Made by a program: the position numbers and the translations under genes | Source: a virus | IMG/VR virus record: IMGVR_UViG_3300033064_006579 | Coordinates: 32,001-96,000 of that record | Length of the DNA stretch: 64,000 bases | Strand: one strand, 5' to 3' | Shown here: positions 50,951 to 60,889 of the stretch, one piece after another | Layout: each line of letters opens with the position of its first letter | How positions within the stretch are numbered: the stretch's first letter is position 1 | The notes under the pieces: model-generated | Seen by the model: only the letters and a program-made list of their open reading frames with translations | Database searches by the model: none | Told to the model about the DNA's origin: nothing

Positions 50951-51250
50951 CTACTCTCCGCATGAATAATGATTGCCATCGGGCCACTTAAAGCGCCCGC
51001 CCCAAGTTCCGCCAATACCCTCCCAGAACTCTCCGAGCGGCAGGTGGTCGATAGTTTCTCTAAGGTACGCACCGTCTTTAAAAAGATTCAGGTCGATAGC
51101 CAACCGCCTGTAATGGAAGCTCCCGTCCTTATGTCCCCTTGAGGCCCAGGCGTCTCCGAATGTCAACTCATACCCGCTCTCATATGCGAAAAGTATCAAC
51201 CTCGCAACCATGTAAACAAATTTACTTTGTTTTTCCCTGACTGCCCCCAT
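50951..51250 (-). CDS. Peptidase M15 family peptidoglycan hydrolase
   Basis: SFHYRRLAIDL (H, D), WGGRF, DGNHYS (H). Confidence 0.85.
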   Translation of the reverse strand: MGAVREKQSKFVYMVARLILFAYESGYELTFGDAWASRGHKDGSFHYRRLAIDLNLFKDGAYLRETIDHLPLGEFWEGIGGTWGGRFKWPDGNHYSCGE

Positions 51251-51284: not shown

Positions 51285-52166
51285 CTAAAATAGCGTTGGC
51301 ACAGCCTCTCGATATAACTTTGTCCAAAACTTTTTATCGGCATTCGCTCTTGCATTACAACTCCTACATAATGTTATCAAATTATCAGGGTGACAATTTT
51401 TCTTGTCGTAATCAATATGATGAATTACTAAATCGCAATTTTTATCCCAACAATCAGGATTTTGACACTTATAATTATCTCTTTCTTTTATGTCTTCTTT
51501 AAACTCCTTGTCTCCCCAAACATGACAATACTCTTCTTTAGAACTCCCGCCTTTCCACCTTGGATGGTTACAAGGGGCAGAAAATCTTTCAAAACTTGCC
51601 AAACTCATTTTCAATCTTGTTTTTTCAGAGAATTTTCTTCCTTTATTTGCCAAACTTATTTTTTCTCTAACTTCAGATCGTTTAGCAGGATTATCGTCAC
51701 CATATAATCTTGTTGTTTTTATTTTAGCCTTTGTTTCTTCAGAATGTTTCATCCCTTTATGAGCATTAGATATTTTCTCTCGCCATTCTTTTGTTATAAC
51801 CCTGCCTTTCATTTTCTCACTTATTTTTTCTCTAACTTCAGATCGTTTAGCAGGATTATCATCACCACGAAGAGCTGATTTTTTCAAATTTTCAATGTGA
51901 AGTTTGCTTAATTTTTTACCCTTGTGAGCGTTAGATATTTTCTCTATCGACTCTTTAGAATGAGCCTTGCCATAAAAATGATTTTTCTCGCCTTTGTGAG
52001 ATTCGCTTAATTTCATTTTATGTTCTTTTGAAAGAGACTTTCCAGAATGGCTTTTACTTATCTTTTCTCTAACCCACTTCATTCTTGATGAATGGCCTTT
52101 TAAAAATCGATTCCCCAACTTGGCATACTCACCACAACCACATTCACATAGAGTTTTATTCTTCAT
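51285..52166 (-). mobile_element. Free-standing HNH homing endonuclease with NUMOD3 repeats
   Basis: CECGC, NUMOD3 repeats, IHHIDYDKKNCHPDNLITLCRSCN; start MKNK overlaps portal stop; internal ~46-bp direct repeat. Confidence 0.9.
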
Positions 52167-53640
52167 CTGACCATTCACTCTCATTGCCCTCATCAATTGC
52201 GCCCCACTGGTTGGCGGGCGCAATGGGTAGATTAAAAGGCACTTTATAAATATCCATGCCGTCCTCTTCAATAATATTCTGCTCCTCTTCCTCGCTATTA
52301 AGTCCCTCTTTATGTCGCCATGTTTTGCGGGAAAGTATTTTACTCTCGTGTTGAATTTTCCTTGCTTGATTATTCTTCATAATATCTGCAAGGATGAGGG
52401 GCGGCCATTCAAGTGCGCAGCCCTCTTCTTCGTCTTTTGGGATCTCACCATAATCCTTGCCTGCGGAGATAACCCAAACGAATATTTCATTATAATACCA
52501 ACCGAAGAAGTCCTGCCAGTCCTCGATCTCTCTGACAAACGGATTCTGTGCAGTAACAGACGAACTATAATTGGCATTCGAGTAATCAGCGGTGAGCATC
52601 ATTTCGGGCATCCCACACCCAGCCGCCACCGCCAATAGCATGGCCCTGCCGTCATCCTTGACATCCGGAGCATTAATATTTGGCGACACCATCTCATACT
52701 CAATCCCCTCGCTGGCCGTAATAACGGTACCAGCGGCAAAAGCCTGCTGTTTATTGCGATCTGCACTTTGGTGCTGCGCCATTTGGGCCTCGCGCAAACT
52801 CTCTACCGTATTGCTCGTGCCCTTCACGGTTTTGATGAGCGCAATCGCCGAACGCACTTTATTAAGGATAATCCTGTCGTCGAGCCAGTTAAGATACTTC
52901 GCAATCATCGGCAATGCCGTCAATAGTGCGCTCATGCCTCGCTTTACATCACTATCGACGAATATTTTAATGTGGATAATCTCATCGGCCTCGATTGCTT
53001 CAATCAGGTTTCCCTCTGCATCACAGTGATAATACGTCCTCACGTCCTCAACGTCATTCGGATCGGTACCAATACCAAAAGTCACCTGCTCGCCAGCCCG
53101 TAAATCCCCTTCTTTTACGGGATTACGTATTTTTTCAGCCCGCATAAAACGTATTTTCACGTCTCCGTTGTTCTTGTCAACAAAGCGCCGTATAAAAATC
53201 TCCCCATCTCTGAAAACCCTCTTGACGAGTTCCTTCTCTCGCAGTGACCATTTATTCATCTTGGCAAAATTATCCCAAGTATCTTTCACCTTCTCGTTCT
53301 CACTATCAGGCTTAATAGTCGGTCCCTTGCCAAGAACGAATTTACTCAAGTTCCGAACAATAGCTTTTGCATAGAGGTTTGTGGCGAAAGCCTTATAAGC
53401 CACTGCAAGCATTTCATAGTGGTTATAACCAGTGACATCGCTAATATCACCGCTCTCTGCCCCTATCATAATCCAATTACTATCGCCAGGTTCAGTCGGA
53501 ACAGGGCGTTGCGACGGATCTGCCTCTTTCTTAAAAATATTACTGAGTTGTTCTGTAGCAAGTTCGATCCTCGCGAGTTCGAATTTATCCTGCTGTATTT
53601 TTAAACTTCTTCTCGTTCTAAACCCCTCTAAGAGTTTCAT
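52156..53640 (-). CDS. Portal protein (lambda-like family)
   Basis: FRDGEIFIR, IIHIK...RGMS, DYSNANYSS; follows TerL. Confidence 0.9.
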   Translation of the reverse strand: MKLLEGFRTRRSLKIQQDKFELARIELATEQLSNIFKKEADPSQRPVPTEPGDSNWIMIGAESGDISDVTGYNHYEMLAVAYKAFATNLYAKAIVRNLSKFVLGKGPTIKPDSENEKVKDTWDNFAKMNKWSLREKELVKRVFRDGEIFIRRFVDKNNGDVKIRFMRAEKIRNPVKEGDLRAGEQVTFGIGTDPNDVEDVRTYYHCDAEGNLIEAIEADEIIHIKIFVDSDVKRGMSALLTALPMIAKYLNWLDDRIILNKVRSAIALIKTVKGTSNTVESLREAQMAQHQSADRNKQQAFAAGTVITASEGIEYEMVSPNINAPDVKDDGRAMLLAVAAGCGMPEMMLTADYSNANYSSSVTAQNPFVREIEDWQDFFGWYYNEIFVWVISAGKDYGEIPKDEEEGCALEWPPLILADIMKNNQARKIQHESKILSRKTWRHKEGLNSEEEEQNIIEEDGMDIYKVPFNLPIAPANQWGAIDEGNESEWSDEE

Positions 53641-53709: not shown

Positions 53710-55554
53710 TTACCTTTTCCTTCTCCTATACCAAAACCCCTCTTGCTCGACCACTTCCTCTGGAGGTATGATAAGGGGCAGGATAATTTGATAGCAGGAC
53801 TGAATGATATATCGAGTAGTGTCGCAACCATGATCGTCAATTTTTAGGGGAACCTTACTTGAAATCTTTCCCTCGTCGGTCCTCGGGTACCTATAGCGAC
53901 CCATCTCGACATCGGTCCCTACCAATTCCTCATCTTGACAATCAAGGTAATTCTCAAGGATATAATAATTGCTTTTAAGAGCGCCACCCTCCTCATAGTC
54001 AGGCCACGTCTCCATGTGCGCGCGCACGAGCTCTATGCCATTCTCAACATCGTTGATTGCAGAGTATGTATTAATTTTATAGAGATTTAGGAGATCGATG
54101 CGGGCCTGCTTGGCAGAGGGATCGGCGAAGATGATCTCCTGCGCCGCCCACGCGGGCGAGGCCTTAATCCTCCGACTATGTCCCTCGATAGTATCTGCAC
54201 CTGAGCGGTATTCATAAAAAATATAGAATGTCAATTTATATGACAATTCTCTACCTGGTTCGGTATCGTCAAGGGCTCTAAAGATATCGCTATAATCCAC
54301 ATACGCCTTCTGATAGACAAATGGGTGCCCTGGAGACGAACCAAAGTCGATCGCCGACATGACGAGAACATTACTCATCGGTACAATGCTGAGGCTATTA
54401 CCAAAATGGACTTCCCTATTCCACTGCGCTCCGTAGACTAACTCGACAGTGGAGGGCCTTTTACAGAACCACTGTGCATCAAGGACGGGGGTGCTAATAC
54501 TCCTCGCCTTATCGATCCAGTCGTCAATCTTATAGTGCCCTGAGCAGTGGTGGGCCATCCCCCTACATTTCTCGAAGATCGGGCAGTCACCGCGCACCTC
54601 GTCACCCCTACACTCACGCTCGCACTTCTCAAGGATCTCCCATATACACCAGCAATAGATCTTCCACCCCTTATCCTCCGCCTCGTTTAGGAGTCGTTGA
54701 AACGTGCCGACGTCGTACTTCCTCGTCGACAGAAAGGTGTTCTGCCCCATGATGTCCCTGCCATCCTCAGTGGTTTTAGACATCGACATCGATAGGCCCT
54801 CCTGCAGAACTCCCCAGTCCATTAGTTCAACCTCGTCGATGCGCGCCTTCTGCGGATGTGGACTGTTCAGCCCTTTAATCGACCCCGTGACCACCTCCTG
54901 GAAGGAGTTATTGACATAGGTAGTTGAGCCCCTCGTTGGCGGCCTCTCGCACATCGCTGAGATAGTAGGGTGACGGTGAAACGCGACGAAATATTTATAC
55001 ACCTTTCCGGCTTGATCGAGGGTCGAGCCGGCAGACGCTACCTCACAATCCGCTTTGAACGCCATGTCAAGGTGATTGAGGATGGCCACCTCCGTCGTCT
55101 TCCCACCCGTTCTATTAGCGAAGGCAATAGAGTTTCGCGTCCGCTCAAAGAACATGTCGCTAATATAATCAAATGGAGCGGCGTGAGGGTAGTCGAATTT
55201 ATCGAATTCCTCATTGTGTAGCTTGCATACCGCGCGTCGCTGTATCTTAAAGCCGAGAAATTCTAGAATATACCACCACAGTATCTCGTCGTCCCCTATC
55301 CCATACTTCAACAGCGCCCTGAATAGTCGCGGATGGCTGTTCCTCCTGCGATGCCTCAGGTCAAAGTCCTCCCTCAGAAGTCGCGTGAAGTACTGGAACT
55401 TCAGCGCATCCGCGATGACCCCACCTCCGTCAAACCAGCTGTCTGGCAGGTGGAGGTGCTCGATGTAATACTCTATCGACGAGCAGAGAGCTTTCCAATG
55501 TGGAATGCCCTCGACACCCTCCAGAAACTCCCTAGACACTCCGATCTCAGGCAT
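53710..55554 (-). CDS. terL: Terminase large subunit
   Basis: ANRTGGKT Walker A, IDEVE Walker [21 protein letters not shown] nuclease motifs; Cys-rich insert. Confidence 0.9.
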
Positions 55555-55963
55555 CGTCGTCGACGTCCTCTGCAAGTATGCGTACGATAGGCAGTTGCTC
55601 CCCCTCTTCCGTGTCTATAAACTCGTCGTGTGTCATCATCACCTCGATGCACTCGAATAGGAAGTCGCACCTATACCTCCTAACCTTCGCATCAATGGGT
55701 AGAAGGGTGTCGTCCTTGAGCTTCCCTCTCAGCTTGCCCATAGCCGTCTTGATGGAGCCGTCGTAGTAGTCACCGCTCTCTATCGCTTCGATCATCCTCT
55801 CCGCGCCCTTAGAGCCGAGCGCCCTCGCAAGTGCCACATTCGTAATGCTGTAGATTTTCTTTCCCATCATTATTCTCCTCCCTTCATAATCTTTGGGTAT
55901 ACAAATTCGTAGGTGGCTGGCATCTTTATAATGCGCCACTCGCTGCCCGGAATAGTTTGCCAT
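55547..55963 (-). CDS. Hypothetical protein
   Basis: Coupled to TerL; true start may be MMGKK near 55871. Confidence 0.55.
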
Positions 55964-56088
55964 CCATCACTTTCTACCCGCGGAGTCCAGTAGATCTTTT
56001 TCAGTCGATCCCCAATGAGTCCTATCAATTCATCATCCTCGTTTAAAAGTCTTTTCAGCCTATCGATATCCATAGTGCCGTCCTCCAT
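55870..56088 (-). CDS. Hypothetical protein
   Basis: ORF ending in the RBS for the next gene. Confidence 0.5.
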   Translation of the reverse strand: MEDGTMDIDRLKRLLNEDDELIGLIGDRLKKIYWTPRVESDGWQTIPGSEWRIIKMPATYEFVYPKIMKGGE

Positions 56089-56403
56089 GATTTAAAAAAT
56101 AAGAGTAAAAAACAGTTACGATATATTTGGGATGCCCCCAATCCACCCCCGCCCCCCACCCTCTGTTTCGAATGTAGGGCGCCCGCCCCTTACCCTGCAA
56201 TAGTTTGTACCTCACTACCCGCATTGGCTATTGGCTGTCAGCGGATCCAGTGGGGCTGTGACAGGGCTTGGTTGGCCAATGAATGAAAGGGAATCCCCTC
56301 CACCTTCCCTCCTCCCTCTTCCCTACTCCTCCCCTCTTCTCTCTTCCCATCGCTATTCCTCCCTGCCAACCATCATTATACGCCAACGCCAACACCACGC
56401 TCC

Positions 56404-56958
56404 TCATCTCCTCTCTGTCTCCCCCTTAACCTCCATTCTCCTAAAAATAGATTTCTTCCCCTCCTCCTTTCTGTCTCCCCCCGGCTGCGTAGTCTCCTCA
56501 AGCTCTAACGTCACCGTCCTCCTATCCCTCTGCTCTATTGGATCGTACCGTTCCAGCAACTCCATCAAATGCTTCCACGGTACTCTTCCCTCATTCACTG
56601 CTCTCACTGCGGCTCTAAAGCTCGCCTCTCCTAACTCAGTCCTCAGCAGATCAAATCGATAGAGGGGCTCTCCTCTAAGCAGCCTTATCCTCTGCTGCAC
56701 GAGGGGGACGCTCTGCAAATATCTAACTACCTTATCTGTACCTATCCGCAGAGCGTCGGCGATCTCAGAGGGAGAATACCCTGCGTGAGTCCTCTGCGCT
56801 ACCTCCTCCATCTCGGGGGTCAATATAGTAGCATCCTCGAGGGTAGGCCTCCCTGGCCTCTTCGCTCTACCAGCGACAACCTCCGCTACTCGAGGAGGCT
56901 CAATGATGGAGGGGCTGCTCTCTTTTCTCCGCTTGATTTTAGGTCTCTCATCAGCCAT
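56404..56958 (-). CDS. Putative terminase small subunit (HTH)
   Basis: GRPT, GYSPSEIADALRI HTH, LLERYDP; upstream of TerL. Confidence 0.65.
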   Translation of the reverse strand: MADERPKIKRRKESSPSIIEPPRVAEVVAGRAKRPGRPTLEDATILTPEMEEVAQRTHAGYSPSEIADALRIGTDKVVRYLQSVPLVQQRIRLLRGEPLYRFDLLRTELGEASFRAAVRAVNEGRVPWKHLMELLERYDPIEQRDRRTVTLELEETTQPGGDRKEEGKKSIFRRMEVKGETERR

Positions 56959-57095
56959 TTTTATTCCTTTAAAACCCTTTTTATCCTAGGGGGCTGAATT
57001 AATTGGCATTTATTTTCCATCTCTTTGAGTATTCCTGATAATTAAGCGGCCATTTTTAAGTGAGCGAGAGGGAATCTCCTCCCCCTGCACATAGC

Positions 57096-57467
57096 CTACT
57101 CCTCCACGAGAAAGAGGCTGTCCTCCTCGAGGTCGAGTAGCACGCCCCGTGAAGGAGTATCATCACATTTAATGCAATGTGATATTAATCTCTTCACTTC
57201 AATTGCCCTCATCACTCGGCCCCCCACTCCATCCCCCGCTCTCTTTATTAGAATCCTCAATTCCTCAATATTAGCGCCAAACCCCCTGCAGATATCGGAG
57301 AACAGTATTTCACTATCCTGAGAGTCGAGGAATAGCCAATTAAAAGCACTCTGGTATTCCCCTAAAACCCCCTTCGATTGGCTATCACTGCTCCGACAAC
57401 CGTAGAGGTAATCGTTTATCGCTCTCTCTACTATCTTAATCCAAATCGTTTCGTTGAATGCTGTCAT
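57096..57467 (-). CDS. Conserved phage hypothetical protein
   Basis: AINDYL...WLF...FSDICRGFG...LR pattern. Confidence 0.65.
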   Translation of the reverse strand: MTAFNETIWIKIVERAINDYLYGCRSSDSQSKGVLGEYQSAFNWLFLDSQDSEILFSDICRGFGANIEELRILIKRAGDGVGGRVMRAIEVKRLISHCIKCDDTPSRGVLLDLEEDSLFLVEE

Positions 57468-57709
57468 TTCATTTCATTCTGCGAATCCGTGGTTGGGTGT
57501 CCCAGCATAGCCAACGCCATCAATTTCCTCCACCTCTTCTATTTATCTCAGGCAAATGCACACTTCTTCCAGTAGCACCAGACTGTTTCGTTAAATCATC
57601 GTTAGAATGTCCGAGTTTGCATTCTCTATTTATCTCAGCCTCCAACATTTCTATTCGCTCAATCTGCCAATCGGCGAGGATATCAAACACCATTTCGCCG
57701 GAGGTGCCT

Positions 57710-57808
57710 CTAATTAGAGCCTCGTCCATCCATGCAACTCATGCAATTATCGGGGAGCGGGAACTTCACATCATGTTTACAACTCCAACAACTTTTTTCT
57801 GACGACAT
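57710..57808 (-). CDS. Small CxxC...CxxC peptide immediately 3' of the last attC
   Basis: Manual: MSSEKSCWSCKHDVKFPLPDNCMSCMDGRGSN; RBS AAAGGA. Confidence 0.4.
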   Translation of the reverse strand: MSSEKSCWSCKHDVKFPLPDNCMSCMDGRGSN

Positions 57809-57824
57809 CTCATATTCCTTTCAA

Positions 57825-57879
57825 GCCGAATGGTTAGATCAGCGGCGCTTTTCGCGTCGGCTGAATCAACTTGTTATGC
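57825..57879 (-). mobile_element. attC-like recombination site 1 (55 bp)
   Basis: R'' GCATAAC, L'' GAT[T]CAGCCG[A]CG, L' CGCCGCTGATC, R' ATTCGGC. Confidence 0.85.
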
Positions 57880-57880
57880 T

Positions 57881-58108
57881 TTAATTTGCATGCGGCAATG
57901 ATTCATGTCTAATTACACCACGCCAATTTTGACCTCTACCTTGACCATAAGAAACTGCGTTTTCATGTTTTACTATTTTGAGATCCAATATGCGTAACAC
58001 CGCTTCTAATTGCTTAATGTGCTTTCCATTTCAAGATCCCTTGCATAATTCACCAACCTTACTTCCGCAATGGTGACACTCTACCTTTAAATTCATGCCC
58101 ATCAGCAT
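57881..58108 (-). pseudogene. Cassette ORF (75 codons) interrupted by in-frame TGA
   Basis: MLMGMNLKVECHHCGSKVGELCKGS*NGKHIKQLE...LPHAN; TGA at 58031-58033; final TAA 1 nt before R''. Confidence 0.6.
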
Positions 58109-58116
58109 CTCCTGAA

Positions 58117-58239
58117 GCATAATGGTGAAGTGAGCGGTTGCGGGGCCGTGTCACGGGTATGGAATTGAACCATATTGAGCACTATTACCCACCAGGGATT
58201 CCCGCTAACCCCGCAATCCGCTCGACTGACTTGTTAGAT
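58117..58239 (-). mobile_element. attC-like recombination site 2 (123 bp)
   Basis: R'' ATCTAAC, GT[C]GAGCGG[A]TTGCGGGG / CCCCGCAACCGCTCAC, R' ATTATGC. Confidence 0.9.
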
Positions 58240-58445
58240 TTTATTTTCATTTCAAGATCCCTTATTTTCATCTCAAGACCCCTTATTTTGTCTTCATCTC
58301 GAATGGCTTCAAGTGTGGCTTCTACAGCATATTTCTGTAAAGCAGCACAATATTGACCCATATTTATCAGTCCCGGGATTGGCTCATTATTGTGATCCCA
58401 TCCTAAAGGTGTGCCCCGAAAATCTTCCTTATGTGGTATTTCCAT
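58185..58445 (-). CDS. Cassette-borne hypothetical protein (stop inside attC2)
   Basis: RBS AAGGAGG just after R' of attC3. Confidence 0.7.
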   Translation of the reverse strand: MEIPHKEDFRGTPLGWDHNNEPIPGLINMGQYCAALQKYAVEATLEAIRDEDKIRGLEMKIRDLEMKIKSNKSVERIAGLAGIPGG

Positions 58446-58458
58446 AAAACCTCCTTAA

Positions 58459-58516
58459 ACATAATGTTTAGCTGACCTGCCGTTCGTCTCCGGTCGGGTC
58501 TGGCGGCTTGTTAGAT
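58459..58516 (-). mobile_element. attC-like recombination site 3 (58 bp)
   Basis: R'' ATCTAAC, GC[C]AGACCCG[A]CCG / CGGCAGGTCAGC, R' ATTATGT. Confidence 0.8.
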
Positions 58517-58671
58517 TGCTTAAAGTGCTCGCCTCCACATGGTGGCCTATACGGAAAAACAATATACCTTGCCGAGCCACGTTTTAGACATCTCATGCTG
58601 GATGGTTCATCTTCGCGTTTATCGAAAACGGTAAACCATATACAATTCTTACAATTCATGCTCATCCTCAA
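58468..58671 (-). CDS. Cassette-borne small Cys-rich protein (stop inside attC3)
   Basis: CKNCIWF...C...C..F; starts right after R' of attC4. Confidence 0.65.
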   Translation of the reverse strand: MRMSMNCKNCIWFTVFDKREDEPSSMRCLKRGSARYIVFPYRPPCGGEHFKQSNKPPDPTGDERQVS

Positions 58672-58674
58672 GCA

Positions 58675-58798
58675 GCCTAATGGTTAGATCAGCGGCGGGC
58701 TACTGATATGCCCCACAATCAGGGCAGTAGCGATGACCACCAACCTTCATCATACGATGATGCGAACATTTACCGTCCGCTGAATCGGCAGGTTGGGG
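58675..58798 (-). mobile_element. attC-like recombination site 4 (124 bp)
   Basis: R'' CCCCAAC, GAT[T]CAGCGG[A]CG / CGCCGCTGATC, R' ATTAGGC. Confidence 0.85.
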
Positions 58799-58947
58799 GC
58801 ATCAGGCGACAAGATACCCCGGCAAAAAGTTATTGCCTCCCTCGCATCGTCTTGTGCTTGTTCGTGCTTCATTTCCATAGAACTTTCAAGCTGTTTGATA
58901 GTGTCTATTAAAAATCGCTTAACAGCTTCAATATATGGGTTATACAT
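58750..58947 (-). CDS. Cassette-borne hypothetical protein (stop inside attC4)
   Basis: RBS GGGAGG overlaps R' of attC5. Confidence 0.7.
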   Translation of the reverse strand: MYNPYIEAVKRFLIDTIKQLESSMEMKHEQAQDDAREAITFCRGILSPDAPNLPIQRTVNVRIIV

Positions 58948-58954
58948 TTCAGCC

Positions 58955-59073
58955 TCCCAATGGTTAGATCAGCGGCGGGCTACGCTGAAAAGGCACCCGC
59001 AATCACTAAGAGCTTTTTGGCATCCAGTACACAAACCGTCAATAACCTCGTCCGCTGAATCGGGTTGTTGGTT
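58955..59073 (-). mobile_element. attC-like recombination site 5 (119 bp)
   Basis: R'' AACCAAC, GAT[T]CAGCGG[A]CG / CGCCGCTGATC, R' ATTGGGA. Confidence 0.85.
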
Positions 59074-59205
59074 TTCCATTTCGACTACCTTAACTTGGAC
59101 GTTCATAGTGCACGTTTTTGAAAATAGACACGCCTCCAGGTTCTCTTTGCTCATCCAATCTTCGCCGTAATCATCACGCCACTCAATGCTAAATGTTCTT
59201 TTCAT
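58969..59205 (-). CDS. Hypothetical protein reading through almost all of attC5
   Basis: Start MKRTFSIEW with RBS GGAGGG; TGA lies in L'. Confidence 0.7.
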   Translation of the reverse strand: MKRTFSIEWRDDYGEDWMSKENLEACLFSKTCTMNVQVKVVEMENQQPDSADEVIDGLCTGCQKALSDCGCLFSVARR

Positions 59206-59206
59206 T

Positions 59207-59449
59207 TTACCCTCCTTTCCCGCACTTTTTCCAGTACGGTTTCTCCGAAATAAACTTAAATTTTCCCAACACCCTGGGATGAAACAAAATGAAACAATCC
59301 TCACAGAAGACTTTATACAAACTTGGCTTGTTGTCCTGGTAAACAATAGCCCTGCCTGTGCCATCATAAACACGGCTACGAATCCCCGAGGTGACAATAA
59401 TCAACCCTCCACAGACCGGACATCTCAACATCTCACTCTCCTTCCCCAC
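59207..59449 (-). CDS. Small zinc-ribbon protein
   Basis: CPVCGG...CEDC. Confidence 0.6.
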   Translation of the reverse strand: MGKESEMLRCPVCGGLIIVTSGIRSRVYDGTGRAIVYQDNKPSLYKVFCEDCFILFHPRVLGKFKFISEKPYWKKCGKGG

Positions 59450-59897
59450 ACTTGCACCTGGACGGCTGGCGTCCGAACCAAAGTGCCATTGCTGTACTGA
59501 ACTCGCTCCAATCTCCGAACCACTCTCTCTTTAGCGGACAAGTTGAGAACCACGCCTCCCACTCATCCACCGGTTCCGGTTCCGGCTCAGGCTCAGGCTC
59601 AGGCTCAACAAAGCCTGCTCCCCAATATCTTTCCTTGTGTTCAGGCTCTGGAGCGGGCGGGTCGATGATAAGATACCCCTCACTTGTTGGAGAATAATCT
59701 ATGGTGGCAATGTTCCAACAGTTGGTGACGGTATTCCAAAACTTTTCCCCATATTTGGGAAAGCCAATCCGCAGCGTCCACCCGCCCTCTCTCACCAACG
59801 TGAAAGCCTCATGTAGCATCTGCGGCAAGGTGCGTAGGACTGCCCCTGGGAACCGCTCTCCTTCCTTATAAATTACATACTTGTCGTCACTCATCAT
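59433..59897 (-). CDS. Hypothetical protein with (EP)n linker
   Basis: RBS AAAGGAG; EPEPEPEPEPEP. Confidence 0.7.
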   Translation of the reverse strand: MMSDDKYVIYKEGERFPGAVLRTLPQMLHEAFTLVREGGWTLRIGFPKYGEKFWNTVTNCWNIATIDYSPTSEGYLIIDPPAPEPEHKERYWGAGFVEPEPEPEPEPEPVDEWEAWFSTCPLKREWFGDWSEFSTAMALWFGRQPSRCKCGEGE

Positions 59898-59923
59898 TTT
59901 CTCCTTTCATGGCGCAGGGCCGG

Positions 59924-60295
59924 TTAGTCGTCGTCAAAAACTCGCTGAATCATGTCGCATACAATTCCTTGAGCTTCGCGGGTTAACCTCGAAATACAAT
60001 CCTCCGGGATTTCGCCTTGCGTGTCCCAGACGTGTTCCCACAGGTCGTCCCGGAGCATTTCAAAGTTAAAGCCGTCGCAGAAAAACGCATTGCGAATAGA
60101 GAGGCAGTCCAGGCAAGTCTTGAAGCGGCTGAAATCGCCGTCCCACATGCCGGAAACATGCTCGTATTCTTCTCTTATCCCTATGGTCCGTCCACACTCA
60201 GAGCATTTATGTTCCTTTCCCGCCCTTCTGTGTTCGGCAGCATGAAACTCTGCCTGGCTGTCAACGTCTACGGTAACGCAAGCACAGGATTCCAT
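59924..60295 (-). CDS. Conserved phage zinc-binding protein
   Basis: KEHKCSECGRTI...Y...GMWDGDF...KTCLDC. Confidence 0.75.
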   Translation of the reverse strand: MESCACVTVDVDSQAEFHAAEHRRAGKEHKCSECGRTIGIREEYEHVSGMWDGDFSRFKTCLDCLSIRNAFFCDGFNFEMLRDDLWEHVWDTQGEIPEDCISRLTREAQGIVCDMIQRVFDDD

Positions 60296-60315
60296 CTCAC
60301 TCTCCTTTCATGGCT

Positions 60316-60696
60316 TTAAAGTTCCTTCATCTCAAAGGCAGTCGGGATAACATCGTAGGTGCACTTATAATCAAAGAAGCCATCATACATCATCCTCTTC
60401 CTAACACTTTTGGCGATACTGACTGCTTCGACGCGTCTAACCGGCAGATCATCATTACATCGATTGAATGCCCTGAACATTCTGCGACGCGATATCTCTA
60501 TCCCCACTTTCTCAATAAACCCACTCTCTCTAAGTTCGCTATCGGAGCAGAGGGAAAAACCGCGAGCATAGACCCCACCAATCTCACCAATCGCGACAGT
60601 TGCTCGTGGCGTCCCCCTATTACTGAGTAAATGGTAAATGAAAATCCTCATTCCCTTCGGCTTACTTCTGTCGTGAATTTTAGTCTCCCTACCCAT
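60316..60696 (-). CDS. Hypothetical phage protein
   Basis: RBS AGGAGGG; ARGFSLCSDS...F...GIEIS..R. Confidence 0.7.
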   Translation of the reverse strand: MGRETKIHDRSKPKGMRIFIYHLLSNRGTPRATVAIGEIGGVYARGFSLCSDSELRESGFIEKVGIEISRRRMFRAFNRCNDDLPVRRVEAVSIAKSVRKRMMYDGFFDYKCTYDVIPTAFEMKEL

Positions 60697-60813: not shown

Positions 60814-60889
60814 TGGAGCGGAGAGAAGGAATCGAACCTCCGATACTTCTGGCCGGAAGCCAGATGCCATACCACTTGGCTATCCCCGC
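60814..60889 (-). tRNA. tRNA-Gly(UCC)
   Basis: Full cloverleaf GCGGGGA.../TCTCCGC, anticodon loop CT-TCC-GG, TTCGATT loop, U73, encoded CCA. Confidence 0.95.

What the first reader, a model, noticed from the sequence alone, without database searches (positions are those of the whole stretch)
57825..59073. Integron-type attC gene-cassette array embedded in a phage genome
Seen: five imperfect palindromes (55, 123, 58, 124 and 119 bp), all in one orientation and each closing one small ORF. Each has an R'' box ending AAC, an unpaired spacer, L''/L' arms with two extrahelical bases 6-7 bp apart on the R''-L'' arm (G and T on the bottom strand in sites 2 and 3, A and T in sites 1, 4 and 5), and an R' box. 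Several cassettes also show the circularisation signature, where the start of a cassette complements its own R'': TTATGC/GCATAAC is exact, TTGGGA/CCCCAAC has one mismatch and TTAGGC/ATCTAAC has two. Established: this is the attC architecture recognised as folded bottom strand by IntI tyrosine recombinases. No intI or attI is visible in the window. The cassettes are co-oriented with phage transcription just upstream of terS and encode small phage-like Cys-rich proteins rather than typical integron cargo. Inference: the phage uses, or used, an integron integrase (host-encoded or elsewhere on its genome) to acquire and shuffle accessory genes.
Basis: partly seen in the sequence, partly recalled or inferred. 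Interest (0 to 1): 0.92.

Follow-up and report, generated by a model that had tools for sequence, protein, structure and literature searches.

The report
Integron-type gene cassettes in a phage
A complete 112-kb phage genome carries five very small swappable gene cassettes separated by folded-DNA sites of the bacterial integron type but no integrase of its own; phages carrying such arrays are already published, and this one is unusual in that every site has A instead of the conserved G at the cutting point.

Summary
Five sites on the minus strand have the canonical attC layout: S1 57825-57879, S2 58117-58239, S3 58459-58516, S4 58675-58798 and S5 58955-59073.

- **Model test.** A covariance model trained only on real plasmid-integron attC sites ranks S2, S1, S4 and S5 as the four best hits in the window, with exact ends. 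It found nothing in 1.5 Mb of control phage DNA.
- **Relatives.** The same three site subtypes occur in short phage-like metagenome contigs and one unrelated viral contig. Across 18 sites the stem covaries. Cassette starts complement their own R'' box (permutation p about 5e-4), which is the mark of circular cassette intermediates.
- **Recombinase.** The complete phage genome encodes no tyrosine or serine recombinase and no Y1 transposase. This is therefore an attC cluster without an integrase (a CALIN), presumably served by a host integrase.
- **Prior knowledge.** Phage CALINs were published in 2023 (PMC9892861), and this scan has noted similar arrays on other DNA.
- **What is unusual.** All five R' boxes read ATT (0 of 121 attC sites beside real integrases do). 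The cassettes are only 216-342 bp. Some ORFs read right through the site.

Whether the sites still recombine is untested.

The parts
58955..59073 (-). attC-type site S5 (119 nt, subtype i): R'' AACCAAC, R' ATTGGGA. Lies wholly inside the 3' end of the 78-aa ORF.
   Evidence: Layout score 11/11. Model R2: 15.1 bits, full length, exact ends.
58675..58798 (-). attC-type site S4 (124 nt, subtype i): R'' CCCCAAC, R' ATTAGGC.
   Evidence: Layout score 11/11. R2: 17.9 bits, E 0.03 in the 64-kb window.
58459..58516 (-). attC-type site S3 (58 nt, subtype iii): R'' ATCTAAC, R' ATTATGT. Encodes the last 16 residues of the 65-aa ORF.
   Evidence: Layout score 10/11 with two bottom-strand G-T wobbles. R2 gives only 10.9 bits, which is noise level. 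The site is 83% identical over 52 nt to site L053:336-393, which scores 19.6 bits.
58117..58239 (-). attC-type site S2 (123 nt, subtype ii): R'' ATCTAAC, R' ATTATGC. Extrahelical G and T on the bottom strand.
   Evidence: Layout score 11/11. R2: 31.2 bits, E 6e-6. DNA fold z-score -3.9.
57825..57879 (-). attC-type site S1 (55 nt, short subtype i): R'' GCATAAC, R' ATTCGGC. Last site of the array.
   Evidence: Layout score 10/11. R2: 21.6 bits, E 0.003. Also hit by the narrow aadA1-type model R1.
58969..59205 (-). Cassette-5 ORF, 78 aa. Its Cys-rich tail (NQQPDSAD...RR-stop) is encoded by S5.
   Evidence: No Pfam family. The same in-frame tail design occurs in six other subtype-i sites.
58750..58947 (-). 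Cassette-4 ORF, 65 aa. It enters S4 one base out of frame with the subtype-i tail frame (PQPADSADGKC...CPDCGAYQ-stop).
   Evidence: The tail matches L051's SPQPADSADGISKC. No Pfam family.
58468..58665 (-). Cassette-3 ORF, 65 aa, with CxxC and further Cys residues. Reads through S3 and stops in the TAA of the L'-R' spacer.
58185..58445 (-). Cassette-2 ORF, 86 aa, containing a 21-nt tandem repeat. Ends 55 nt into S2. Orphan protein.
   Evidence: It is the only member of its cluster among 5.8 billion proteins but is recorded on 12 contigs.
57881..58108 (-). Cassette-1 coding remnant: a 25-aa ORF (58031-58108, CHHC...C) and a 39-aa GTG ORF (57881-58000). Possibly one frameshifted gene.
   Evidence: Read from the sequence.

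Best explanation
This is a genuine integron-type gene-cassette array: a cluster of five attC sites with no integron integrase (a CALIN), sitting in the accessory-gene region upstream of the terS and terL genes of a complete 112-kb phage with direct terminal repeats.

Proposed mechanism. Each cassette is one tiny ORF plus its attC site. When the DNA is single-stranded, the bottom strand (the window's + strand) folds: R'' pairs with R', L'' pairs with L', and two extrahelical bases mark the strand. A tyrosine recombinase of the IntI type, supplied by the host because the phage has none, would cut between AA and the next base of the R' box. It would then exchange cassettes as circles between attC sites.

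Family. The sites belong to a family shared with other phage-like DNA from a few metagenomes, so these micro-cassettes have moved between phage genomes.

The ATT core. All five sites carry A instead of G at the first position of the R' triplet. In the folded bottom strand this turns the C-G pair at the cleavage position into a T-G wobble. I infer that the change is tolerated rather than inactivating.

Status of each step. Shown: site architecture, model match, stem covariation, circularisation signature, absence of a phage recombinase. Inferred: host IntI as the enzyme, present-day activity, and tolerance of the ATT core.
For: 1. Layout. Five hits and no others in the genome against 0.225 expected. 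The same scanner finds known class-1 attC sites.
2. Covariance model R2, trained only on 18 real plasmid-integron attC hits.
   - With filters off on the window, the top four hits are S2 31.2, S1 21.6, S4 17.9 and S5 15.1 bits, all full length with exact ends. The best noise hit is 11.4 bits.
   - Nothing above 11 bits in the rest of the genome.
   - No hit at E<=10 in 1.5 Mb of other phage DNA.
   - R2 finds 121 attC sites beside real IntI genes at 19-79 bits.
3. Relatives. A 19-nt arm motif retrieves metagenome contigs L049 and L051-L056. These carry arrays of the same three subtypes beside phage-type genes: phrog_392 hydrolase at 9e-53, an M15 peptidase and a deoxyribosyltransferase-like protein. 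One site also lies in an unrelated 46-kb viral contig, L070.
4. Covariation over 18 sites. Nine of 14 L-stem pairs change on both sides and 97% of cells are paired. The score is 0.423, against 0.119 in shuffles (0 of 500 reach it) and at most 0.071 when the partners are slid.
5. Circularisation. Cassette starts complement their own R'' box perfectly in 5 of 12 cassettes. Permutation p is 5e-4.
6. Arm similarity. The L arms of chromosomal attC sites beside IntI match the phage's subtype-i L arms at 21 of 24 positions.
7. No recombinase. Nothing found for PF00589, TIGR02249, PF01797 or PF00239 in the 100%-complete genome.
8. Published precedent. Phage CALINs whose attC sites IntI1 recombines (PMC9892861).
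Against: - The defining GTT of R' is ATT in all five sites. Among 121 attC sites next to real integrases none has ATT.
- S3 scores at noise level with the model.
- S4 and S5 have long loops with little self-pairing. The fold z-score is near 0 on both strands for S5 and -1.9 on S4's top strand.
- No integrase, attI site or host is identified.
- None of 40 phage contigs with related TerL shows such sites near terL, so gain and loss cannot be seen among relatives.
- The phage's own four circularisation matches (11 of 16 informative positions) are not significant alone.
- No read-level or experimental evidence of recombination was obtained.
Confidence: 0.72

Rival explanations
1. Inert relic. The array was once built by integron recombination, in a host integron or an ancestral phage, but is now a fixed passenger. 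On this view the G-to-A change at the cleavage position of every site is an inactivating mutation that stops a host integrase from excising the genes.
For: - 5 of 5 sites are ATT, against 3 of 14 in the related metagenome and viral sites and 0 of 121 beside real integrases.
- With IntI1, changing the first nucleotide in one partner only lowers recombination 1,000- to 10,000-fold (PMC2811028).
- The phage has no recombinase.
- The cassette-4 ORF is out of frame with its tail, and cassette 1 looks broken.
Against: - Every other conserved position is intact in all five sites: AAC of R'', TT of R', the L stem and the bulges. That is not what random decay gives.
- ATT sites in contig L053 bound two cassettes with perfect circularisation signatures.
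- R'' keeps AAC, so the folded bottom strand has a T-G wobble and not a mismatch. This differs from the compensated mutants tested in PMC2811028.
Confidence: 0.18
2. A phage hairpin-cassette system that resembles attC but is served by an enzyme other than IntI, for example a host Xer-type or an unrecognised recombinase. It would work like an integron without belonging to the integron family.
For: - The family was found only in phage-like contexts.
- No match in 185,579 species genomes for the arm motif.
- The ATT core and the very small cassettes are atypical.
- Earlier notes of this scan describe integron-like phage arrays with Xer-type recombinases on other DNA (unchecked).
Against: - The sites match real attC sites position by position, including the spacers and bulge positions that IntI reads.
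- The crossover inferred from cassette boundaries lies exactly at (G/A)|TT.
- No alternative recombinase was found on the phage or on L070's record.
Confidence: 0.06
3. Not recombination sites at all: transcription terminators, RNA-processing hairpins or protein-level repeats (the DSAD...RR tails). Alternatively, an assembly chimera with a bacterial integron.
For: - Several ORFs read through the sites in a fixed frame.
- Integron-like arrays often break assemblies.
Against: - No T-runs. The terminator scan finds none of the sites on the coding strand.
- Arm conservation is at the DNA level, including third codon positions, and the two arms covary.
- GC content and GC skew are continuous across the block.
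- Phage genes flank both sides in a genome closed by terminal repeats.
- The cargo proteins are orphans.
Confidence: 0.04

Closest known systems
[quoted passage not shown]
   Same: - Several co-oriented attC sites in a phage genome with no intI.
- One small accessory ORF per cassette.
- Canonical R''/L''/L'/R' architecture.
- In that study, five of six phage attC sites were recombined by IntI1.
   Different: - All five R' boxes here read ATT, whereas that paper confirmed G|TTRRRY junctions.
- The cassettes are only 216-342 bp.
- Some ORFs read through the whole site.
- The site family is shared among uncultured phage-like contigs and was not traced to a bacterial integron.
- That survey covered 10,705 NCBI phage genomes, not metagenomic viral genomes.
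attC sites of mobile class 1 and class 2 integrons (aadA1, aadA2, cmlA1, blaVIM, a 57-nt site on pAJ1044-1) and of chromosomal integrons
   Same: - Identical layout: a 7-nt R'' ending in AAC, a 5-nt spacer, then 3 bp, a bulge, 6 bp, a bulge, a variable loop, a 5-6-nt spacer and a 7-nt R'.
- Very similar arms. For example GTTCAAGCGGACG / CGCCGCTCAAC on pAJ1044-1 compares with GATTCAGCGGACG / CGCCGCTGATC here.
- The phage sites' model scores overlap the lower range of real chromosomal sites.
   Different: - GTT occurs in 113 of 121 real sites and ATT in none.
- Median cassette pitch is 649 bp in real arrays, against 216-342 bp here.
- An intI gene lies beside the real arrays; none is present here.
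IntI1 cleavage-site mutants of Frumerie, Ducos-Galand, Gopaul and Mazel 2009, NAR (PMC2811028)
   Same: They concern the same position, the first nucleotide of the GTT triplet. That work shows the nucleotide's identity is free as long as both partner sites agree.
   Different: - Their attC mutants changed both complementary positions. The natural sites here change only R' and keep AAC in R'', which gives a T-G wobble.
- No assay has been done on such a configuration as far as I could find.

Membership tests
Integron attC site | R'' box RYYYAAC at the 5' end of the top strand | tested here: met
   AAC is present in 5 of 5 sites: GCATAAC, ATCTAAC (twice), CCCCAAC and AACCAAC. The purine/pyrimidine pattern is imperfect in some, as it is in real sites.
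Integron attC site | R' box GTTRRRY with a conserved GTT triplet (crossover G|TT) | tested here: not met
   All five sites read ATTRRRY. Among 121 attC sites beside real IntI genes, ATT occurs in 0 and GTT in 113. Related metagenome and viral sites: 11 GTT and 3 ATT.
Integron attC site | L''/L' imperfect inverted repeat with two extrahelical bases about 6 bp apart on the R''-L'' arm, and about 5-nt unpaired spacers between the R and L boxes | tested here: met
   Strict-layout score is 10-11 of 11 in all five sites. The same layout is seen in 12 control attC sites. The stem covaries across 18 family members.
Integron attC site | Match to an attC covariance model | tested here: met
   My own model R2, built from real attC sites only, gives S2 31.2, S1 21.6, S4 17.9, S5 15.1 and S3 10.9 bits. 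Controls were clean. The curated IntegronFinder/HattCI model was not available.
Integron attC site | Cassette start complements the cassette's own R'' (circular intermediate) | tested here: met
   Across 12 cassettes of the family, 5 are perfect; permutation p is 5e-4. For the phage's four cassettes alone the match is 11 of 16 informative positions, which is not significant.
Integron attC site | Recombination of the folded bottom strand by an IntI integrase | not testable with these tools
   Needs a suicide-conjugation assay.
Complete integron | intI gene (tyrosine recombinase with the IntI-specific insertion) adjacent to the array | tested here: not met
   No PF00589 or TIGR02249 match at E<=1 anywhere in the 100%-complete genome.
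Complete integron | attI site and Pc promoter at the head of the array | tested here: inconclusive
   No attC or recognisable R' lies upstream of cassette 5. The preceding 80-aa ORF abuts it with TAAAATG. One weak promoter-like match lies at 59233-59204 on the minus strand.
CALIN (cluster of attC sites lacking an integrase) | At least two attC sites close together (PMC9892861 used 3 kb; 4 kb is the IntegronFinder default as I recall it), with no intI nearby | tested here: met
   Five sites lie within 1.25 kb and the genome has no intI.

The most novel reading that the evidence does not exclude
A phage-restricted pool of integron-type micro-cassettes. Co-occurring phages would exchange 200-350-bp genes through a private attC family, using host integrases. 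On this reading the ATT core is a functional wobble variant of the cleavage site that changes partner preference, and the variable loop of the site has been taken over to encode short, often zinc-ribbon-like C-terminal tails. That would make attC sites protein-coding modules and phages a separate compartment of the integron gene pool.
Probability: 0.25. Interest if true: 0.75.

Novelty: new variant of a known kind. Interest (0 to 1): 0.55.

Why it matters
Integrons are the main engines of gene capture in bacteria, and phages were added to their known carriers only in 2023.

This array shows that attC-bounded cassettes can be very small (216-342 bp), can carry phage-type orphan genes, and can circulate among different phage genomes.

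It also gives a natural test case for the one position thought to be nearly invariant in attC sites. All five sites have A for G at the cleavage point while keeping the pairing partner. This bears directly on how strictly integrases read the cleavage site, and on whether phages can keep cassettes out of reach of the host integron or in a private exchange group.

The finding is not a new kind of system, and activity is unproven.

Tried and rejected
- **Rfam.** No family matched the region at gathering score or at E<=10.
- **Phage GenBank collection.** No blastn match to 56000-60500.
- **TerL relatives.** A single-protein scan found none. An alignment scan gave 40 contigs at 62% identity or less, none with such sites, so cassette gain and loss among relatives could not be scored. 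Only terS and two other flanking ORFs are conserved in them.
- **First covariance model.** Model R1, built from aadA1-type sites only, was too narrow. It missed true attC sites such as aac(6')-Ib and dfrA1 and gave S1 only 14.7 bits. MAFFT alignments of diverse attC sites misplaced the right arms.
- **Arm motif in other collections.**
  - The scan of 185,579 species genomes gave four chance hits without attC layout, so no bacterial source or host was identified.
  - Metagenome hits L050 and L057 and viral hit L069 were also chance.
- **Tail profile search.** The subtype-i tail profile, searched against 5.8 billion proteins, returned only proteins already in hand.
- **L070's record.** An R2 search through the genome search returned nothing, even for the known site, so that result is uninformative.
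- **Terminator reading.** Rejected.
- Other assemblies and reads could therefore not be examined.
- **Cluster look-up.** This gave no sample names.
Full report
**Setting.** The window is bases 32001-96000 of a 112,458-bp IMG/VR virus record with direct terminal repeats, rated 100% complete. Genes around the finding are on the minus strand:
- the large terminase at 53710-55575;
- a 184-aa helix-turn-helix protein, the likely small terminase, at 56404-56958;
- a run of very small ORFs.

**Observation.** Read on the minus strand, five sites share one layout:
- a 7-nt box ending in AAC (R'');
- a 5-nt spacer;
- an arm of 3 bp, one extra base, 6 bp, one extra base and at least 2 bp (L'');
- a variable loop;
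- the complementary arm (L');
- a 5-nt spacer;
- a 7-nt box ATTRRRY (R').

The sites are S1 57825-57879, S2 58117-58239, S3 58459-58516, S4 58675-58798 and S5 58955-59073.

A scanner for this strict layout finds these five sites and nothing else on either strand of the whole genome. Forty Markov shuffles gave a mean of 0.225 hits. Each R' is followed within 8-20 nt by a ribosome-binding site and an ATG. S1, S4 and S5 share identical arms, and an 18-nt piece of the right arm occurs only three times in the window.

**Is this the attC layout or only something like it?** I fetched class 1 and class 2 integron arrays from eight plasmids.
- The unchanged scanner recovers 12 of their attC sites with one false hit in 44 kb. 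The layout is therefore the canonical one, down to bulge positions and spacer lengths.
- A 57-nt site on pAJ1044-1 has arms nearly the same as the phage's.

I then built a covariance model, R2, from 18 real attC hits only.

| Target searched with R2 | Result |
|---|---|
| 64-kb window, filters off | S2 31.2 bits (E 6e-6), S1 21.6, S4 17.9, S5 15.1; best noise hit 11.4; S3 10.9. All five sites full length with the predicted ends. |
| Rest of the genome | Nothing above 11 bits |
| 1.5 Mb of DNA from 100 other phage contigs | No hit at E<=10 |
| Regions beside 20 real integron-integrase genes | 121 attC sites on the expected strand, 19-79 bits |
| Real sites not used in training | dfrA5 36 bits, blaIMP-1 27 bits |

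The phage sites therefore score like the weaker real sites, and S3 is supported mainly by layout and by its relatives.

**Relatives of the sites.** A 19-nt motif from the right arm, searched in JGI metagenomes, returned seven short contigs from two samples: L049 and L051-L056.
- They carry arrays of two to four sites of the same three subtypes as in the phage: subtype i like S1, S4 and S5; subtype ii like S2; subtype iii like S3. R2 scores them at 18-37 bits.
- These contigs carry phage-type genes: a phrog_392 metal-dependent hydrolase (9e-53), an M15 peptidase and a deoxyribosyltransferase-like protein.
- One cassette ORF in L049 is 70% identical in protein to the phage's M15 peptidase gene at 50951-51250. 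In the phage that gene is not flanked by attC sites.
- A single subtype-i site also ends a 76-aa ORF in an unrelated 46-kb viral contig, L070, which also lacks a tyrosine recombinase.
- No species-representative bacterial genome holds the motif in an attC context.

**Structure and mobility across the family.** On the 18 sites aligned to R2:
- 9 of 14 L-stem pairs show changes on both sides, and 97% of cells are paired;
- the covariation score is 0.423, against 0.119 in shuffles (0 of 500 reach it) and at most 0.071 when the partners are slid.

The alignment is fitted to the model, which favours pairing. The three subtypes nonetheless differ by clean compensatory changes.

For 12 cassettes with both boundaries known, I compared the six bases after the crossover with the cassette's own R'':
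- 5 are perfect, including the phage's cassette 1 and two L053 cassettes that start after ATT-type sites;
- permuting which R'' goes with which start gives p of about 5e-4.

This is the footprint of circular cassette intermediates cut at (G/A)|TT. For the phage's four cassettes alone the match (11 of 16 informative positions) is not significant.

**No enzyme on the phage.** Whole-genome searches found no tyrosine recombinase, integron integrase, Y1 transposase or serine recombinase at E<=1.

GC content (0.43-0.47) and GC skew run smoothly through the block, and phage genes flank it on both sides, so nothing suggests a chimeric join. The sites are not terminator-like.

**The ATT core.** All five R' boxes start with A.
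- Among the 121 sites beside real integrases, 113 have GTT and none has ATT.
- In the related metagenome and viral sites, 3 of 14 have ATT.

R'' keeps AAC in all five. In the folded bottom strand the cleavage-position pair is therefore a T-G wobble, not a mismatch.

Frumerie et al. (PMC2811028) showed for IntI1 that the first nucleotide of the triplet may be any base if both partners carry it. A change in one partner alone costs 1,000- to 10,000-fold. Their mutants were compensated in both boxes, which differs from the natural state here.

My inference is that the invading T can still wobble-pair with the G of a partner's R''. ATT sites could then exchange with each other and perhaps with GTT sites. 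The mixed GTT and ATT arrays in L051 and L053 fit this. The alternative is that the change blocks excision and fixes the cassettes, and I cannot exclude it. What argues against plain decay is that every other conserved position is intact in all five sites.

**Cargo and coding through the sites.**
- Cassette pitch is 216-342 bp, against a median of 649 bp in the real arrays, where only 3 of 103 intervals are that small.
- The ORFs are 25-86 aa, several are Cys-rich, none matches Pfam, and the largest is an orphan.
- In subtype-i sites the ORF reads through the whole site in a fixed frame: L'' encodes D-S-A-D and L' encodes R-R-stop. Seven independent long sites have lengths of 104, 107, 119, 119, 122, 125 and 125 nt, all equal modulo 3. 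Their loops encode about 20-27 residues, often with CxxC pairs.
- S4 is the exception. Its upstream ORF is one base out of frame with the tail, which is still recognisable.

Read-through is not unique to this family. By a crude open-frame test, 6 of 19 long real sites also allow it. I therefore treat this as a family habit and not a new principle.

**Comparison with what is known.** Qi et al. 2023 (PMC9892861) reported 17 CALINs in phages, including virulent ones, and showed that IntI1 recombines five of six phage attC sites. The core claim, an attC cassette array in a phage without an integrase, is therefore known.

This scan has also noted similar phage arrays on other DNA (those notes are unchecked leads).

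What is different here is the uniform ATT core, the very small cassettes, and a site family seen so far only in phage-like DNA. I class it as a new variant of a known kind.

**Limits.**
- The curated attC model, other assemblies of this phage, and reads were not available.
- The host is unknown.

Noticed in passing
window 50951-51250 (-) and L049:579-869: The phage's 99-aa Peptidase_M15_4 gene, which lies between the portal and MuF genes, has a 70%-identical homolog that sits as an attC-bounded cassette in metagenome contig L049. Homology starts and stops at the ORF ends. The phage copy has no attC flanks.
   Followed up: yes
window 58241-58282 and about 58020-58045: A 21-nt tandem repeat (two copies, encoding RGLEMKI/RDLEMKI) lies at the end of the 86-aa cassette-2 ORF. 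A related stretch (GGGATCTTGAAATGGAA on the minus strand) sits inside cassette 1, where the coding sequence looks broken into 25-aa and 39-aa ORFs.
   Followed up: partly
window 58792-58804 (-): The cassette-4 ORF and its attC-encoded tail are one base out of frame at a run of five C's in and beside R''. This could be a real frameshift, a programmed one, or a homopolymer assembly error.
   Followed up: partly
window 58185-58445 (-): The exact 86-aa cassette-2 protein is on record on 12 contigs, the cassette-5 ORF on 3, and the large terminase on 2. This may reflect repeated fragmentary assembly or the cassette sitting in other contexts. The contigs could not be fetched.
   Followed up: no
L070:4015-4260 (-): In the unrelated 46-kb viral contig, the heptamer GTTGGCC occurs at codons 4-6 of the 76-aa ORF and again as the R' of its attC site. 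It is a direct repeat bracketing the would-be cassette and may be chance.
   Followed up: no
window 60817-60889 (-): A tRNA gene (Rfam RF00005, 60.9 bits) lies 1.7 kb upstream of the array, between the small ORFs and a B12-type radical SAM gene.
   Followed up: no
window 59575-59658: A GCTCAG/GTTCCG-type repeat encodes an (EP)n run in the 154-aa ORF at 59433-59897.
   Followed up: no
window 51285-52271 (-): A 328-aa ORF between the portal gene and the M15 peptidase has many short Lys/Ser-rich repeats and a Cys/His-rich C-terminus. By eye it looks like a homing-endonuclease-type insertion in the packaging module. No family search was run.
   Followed up: no
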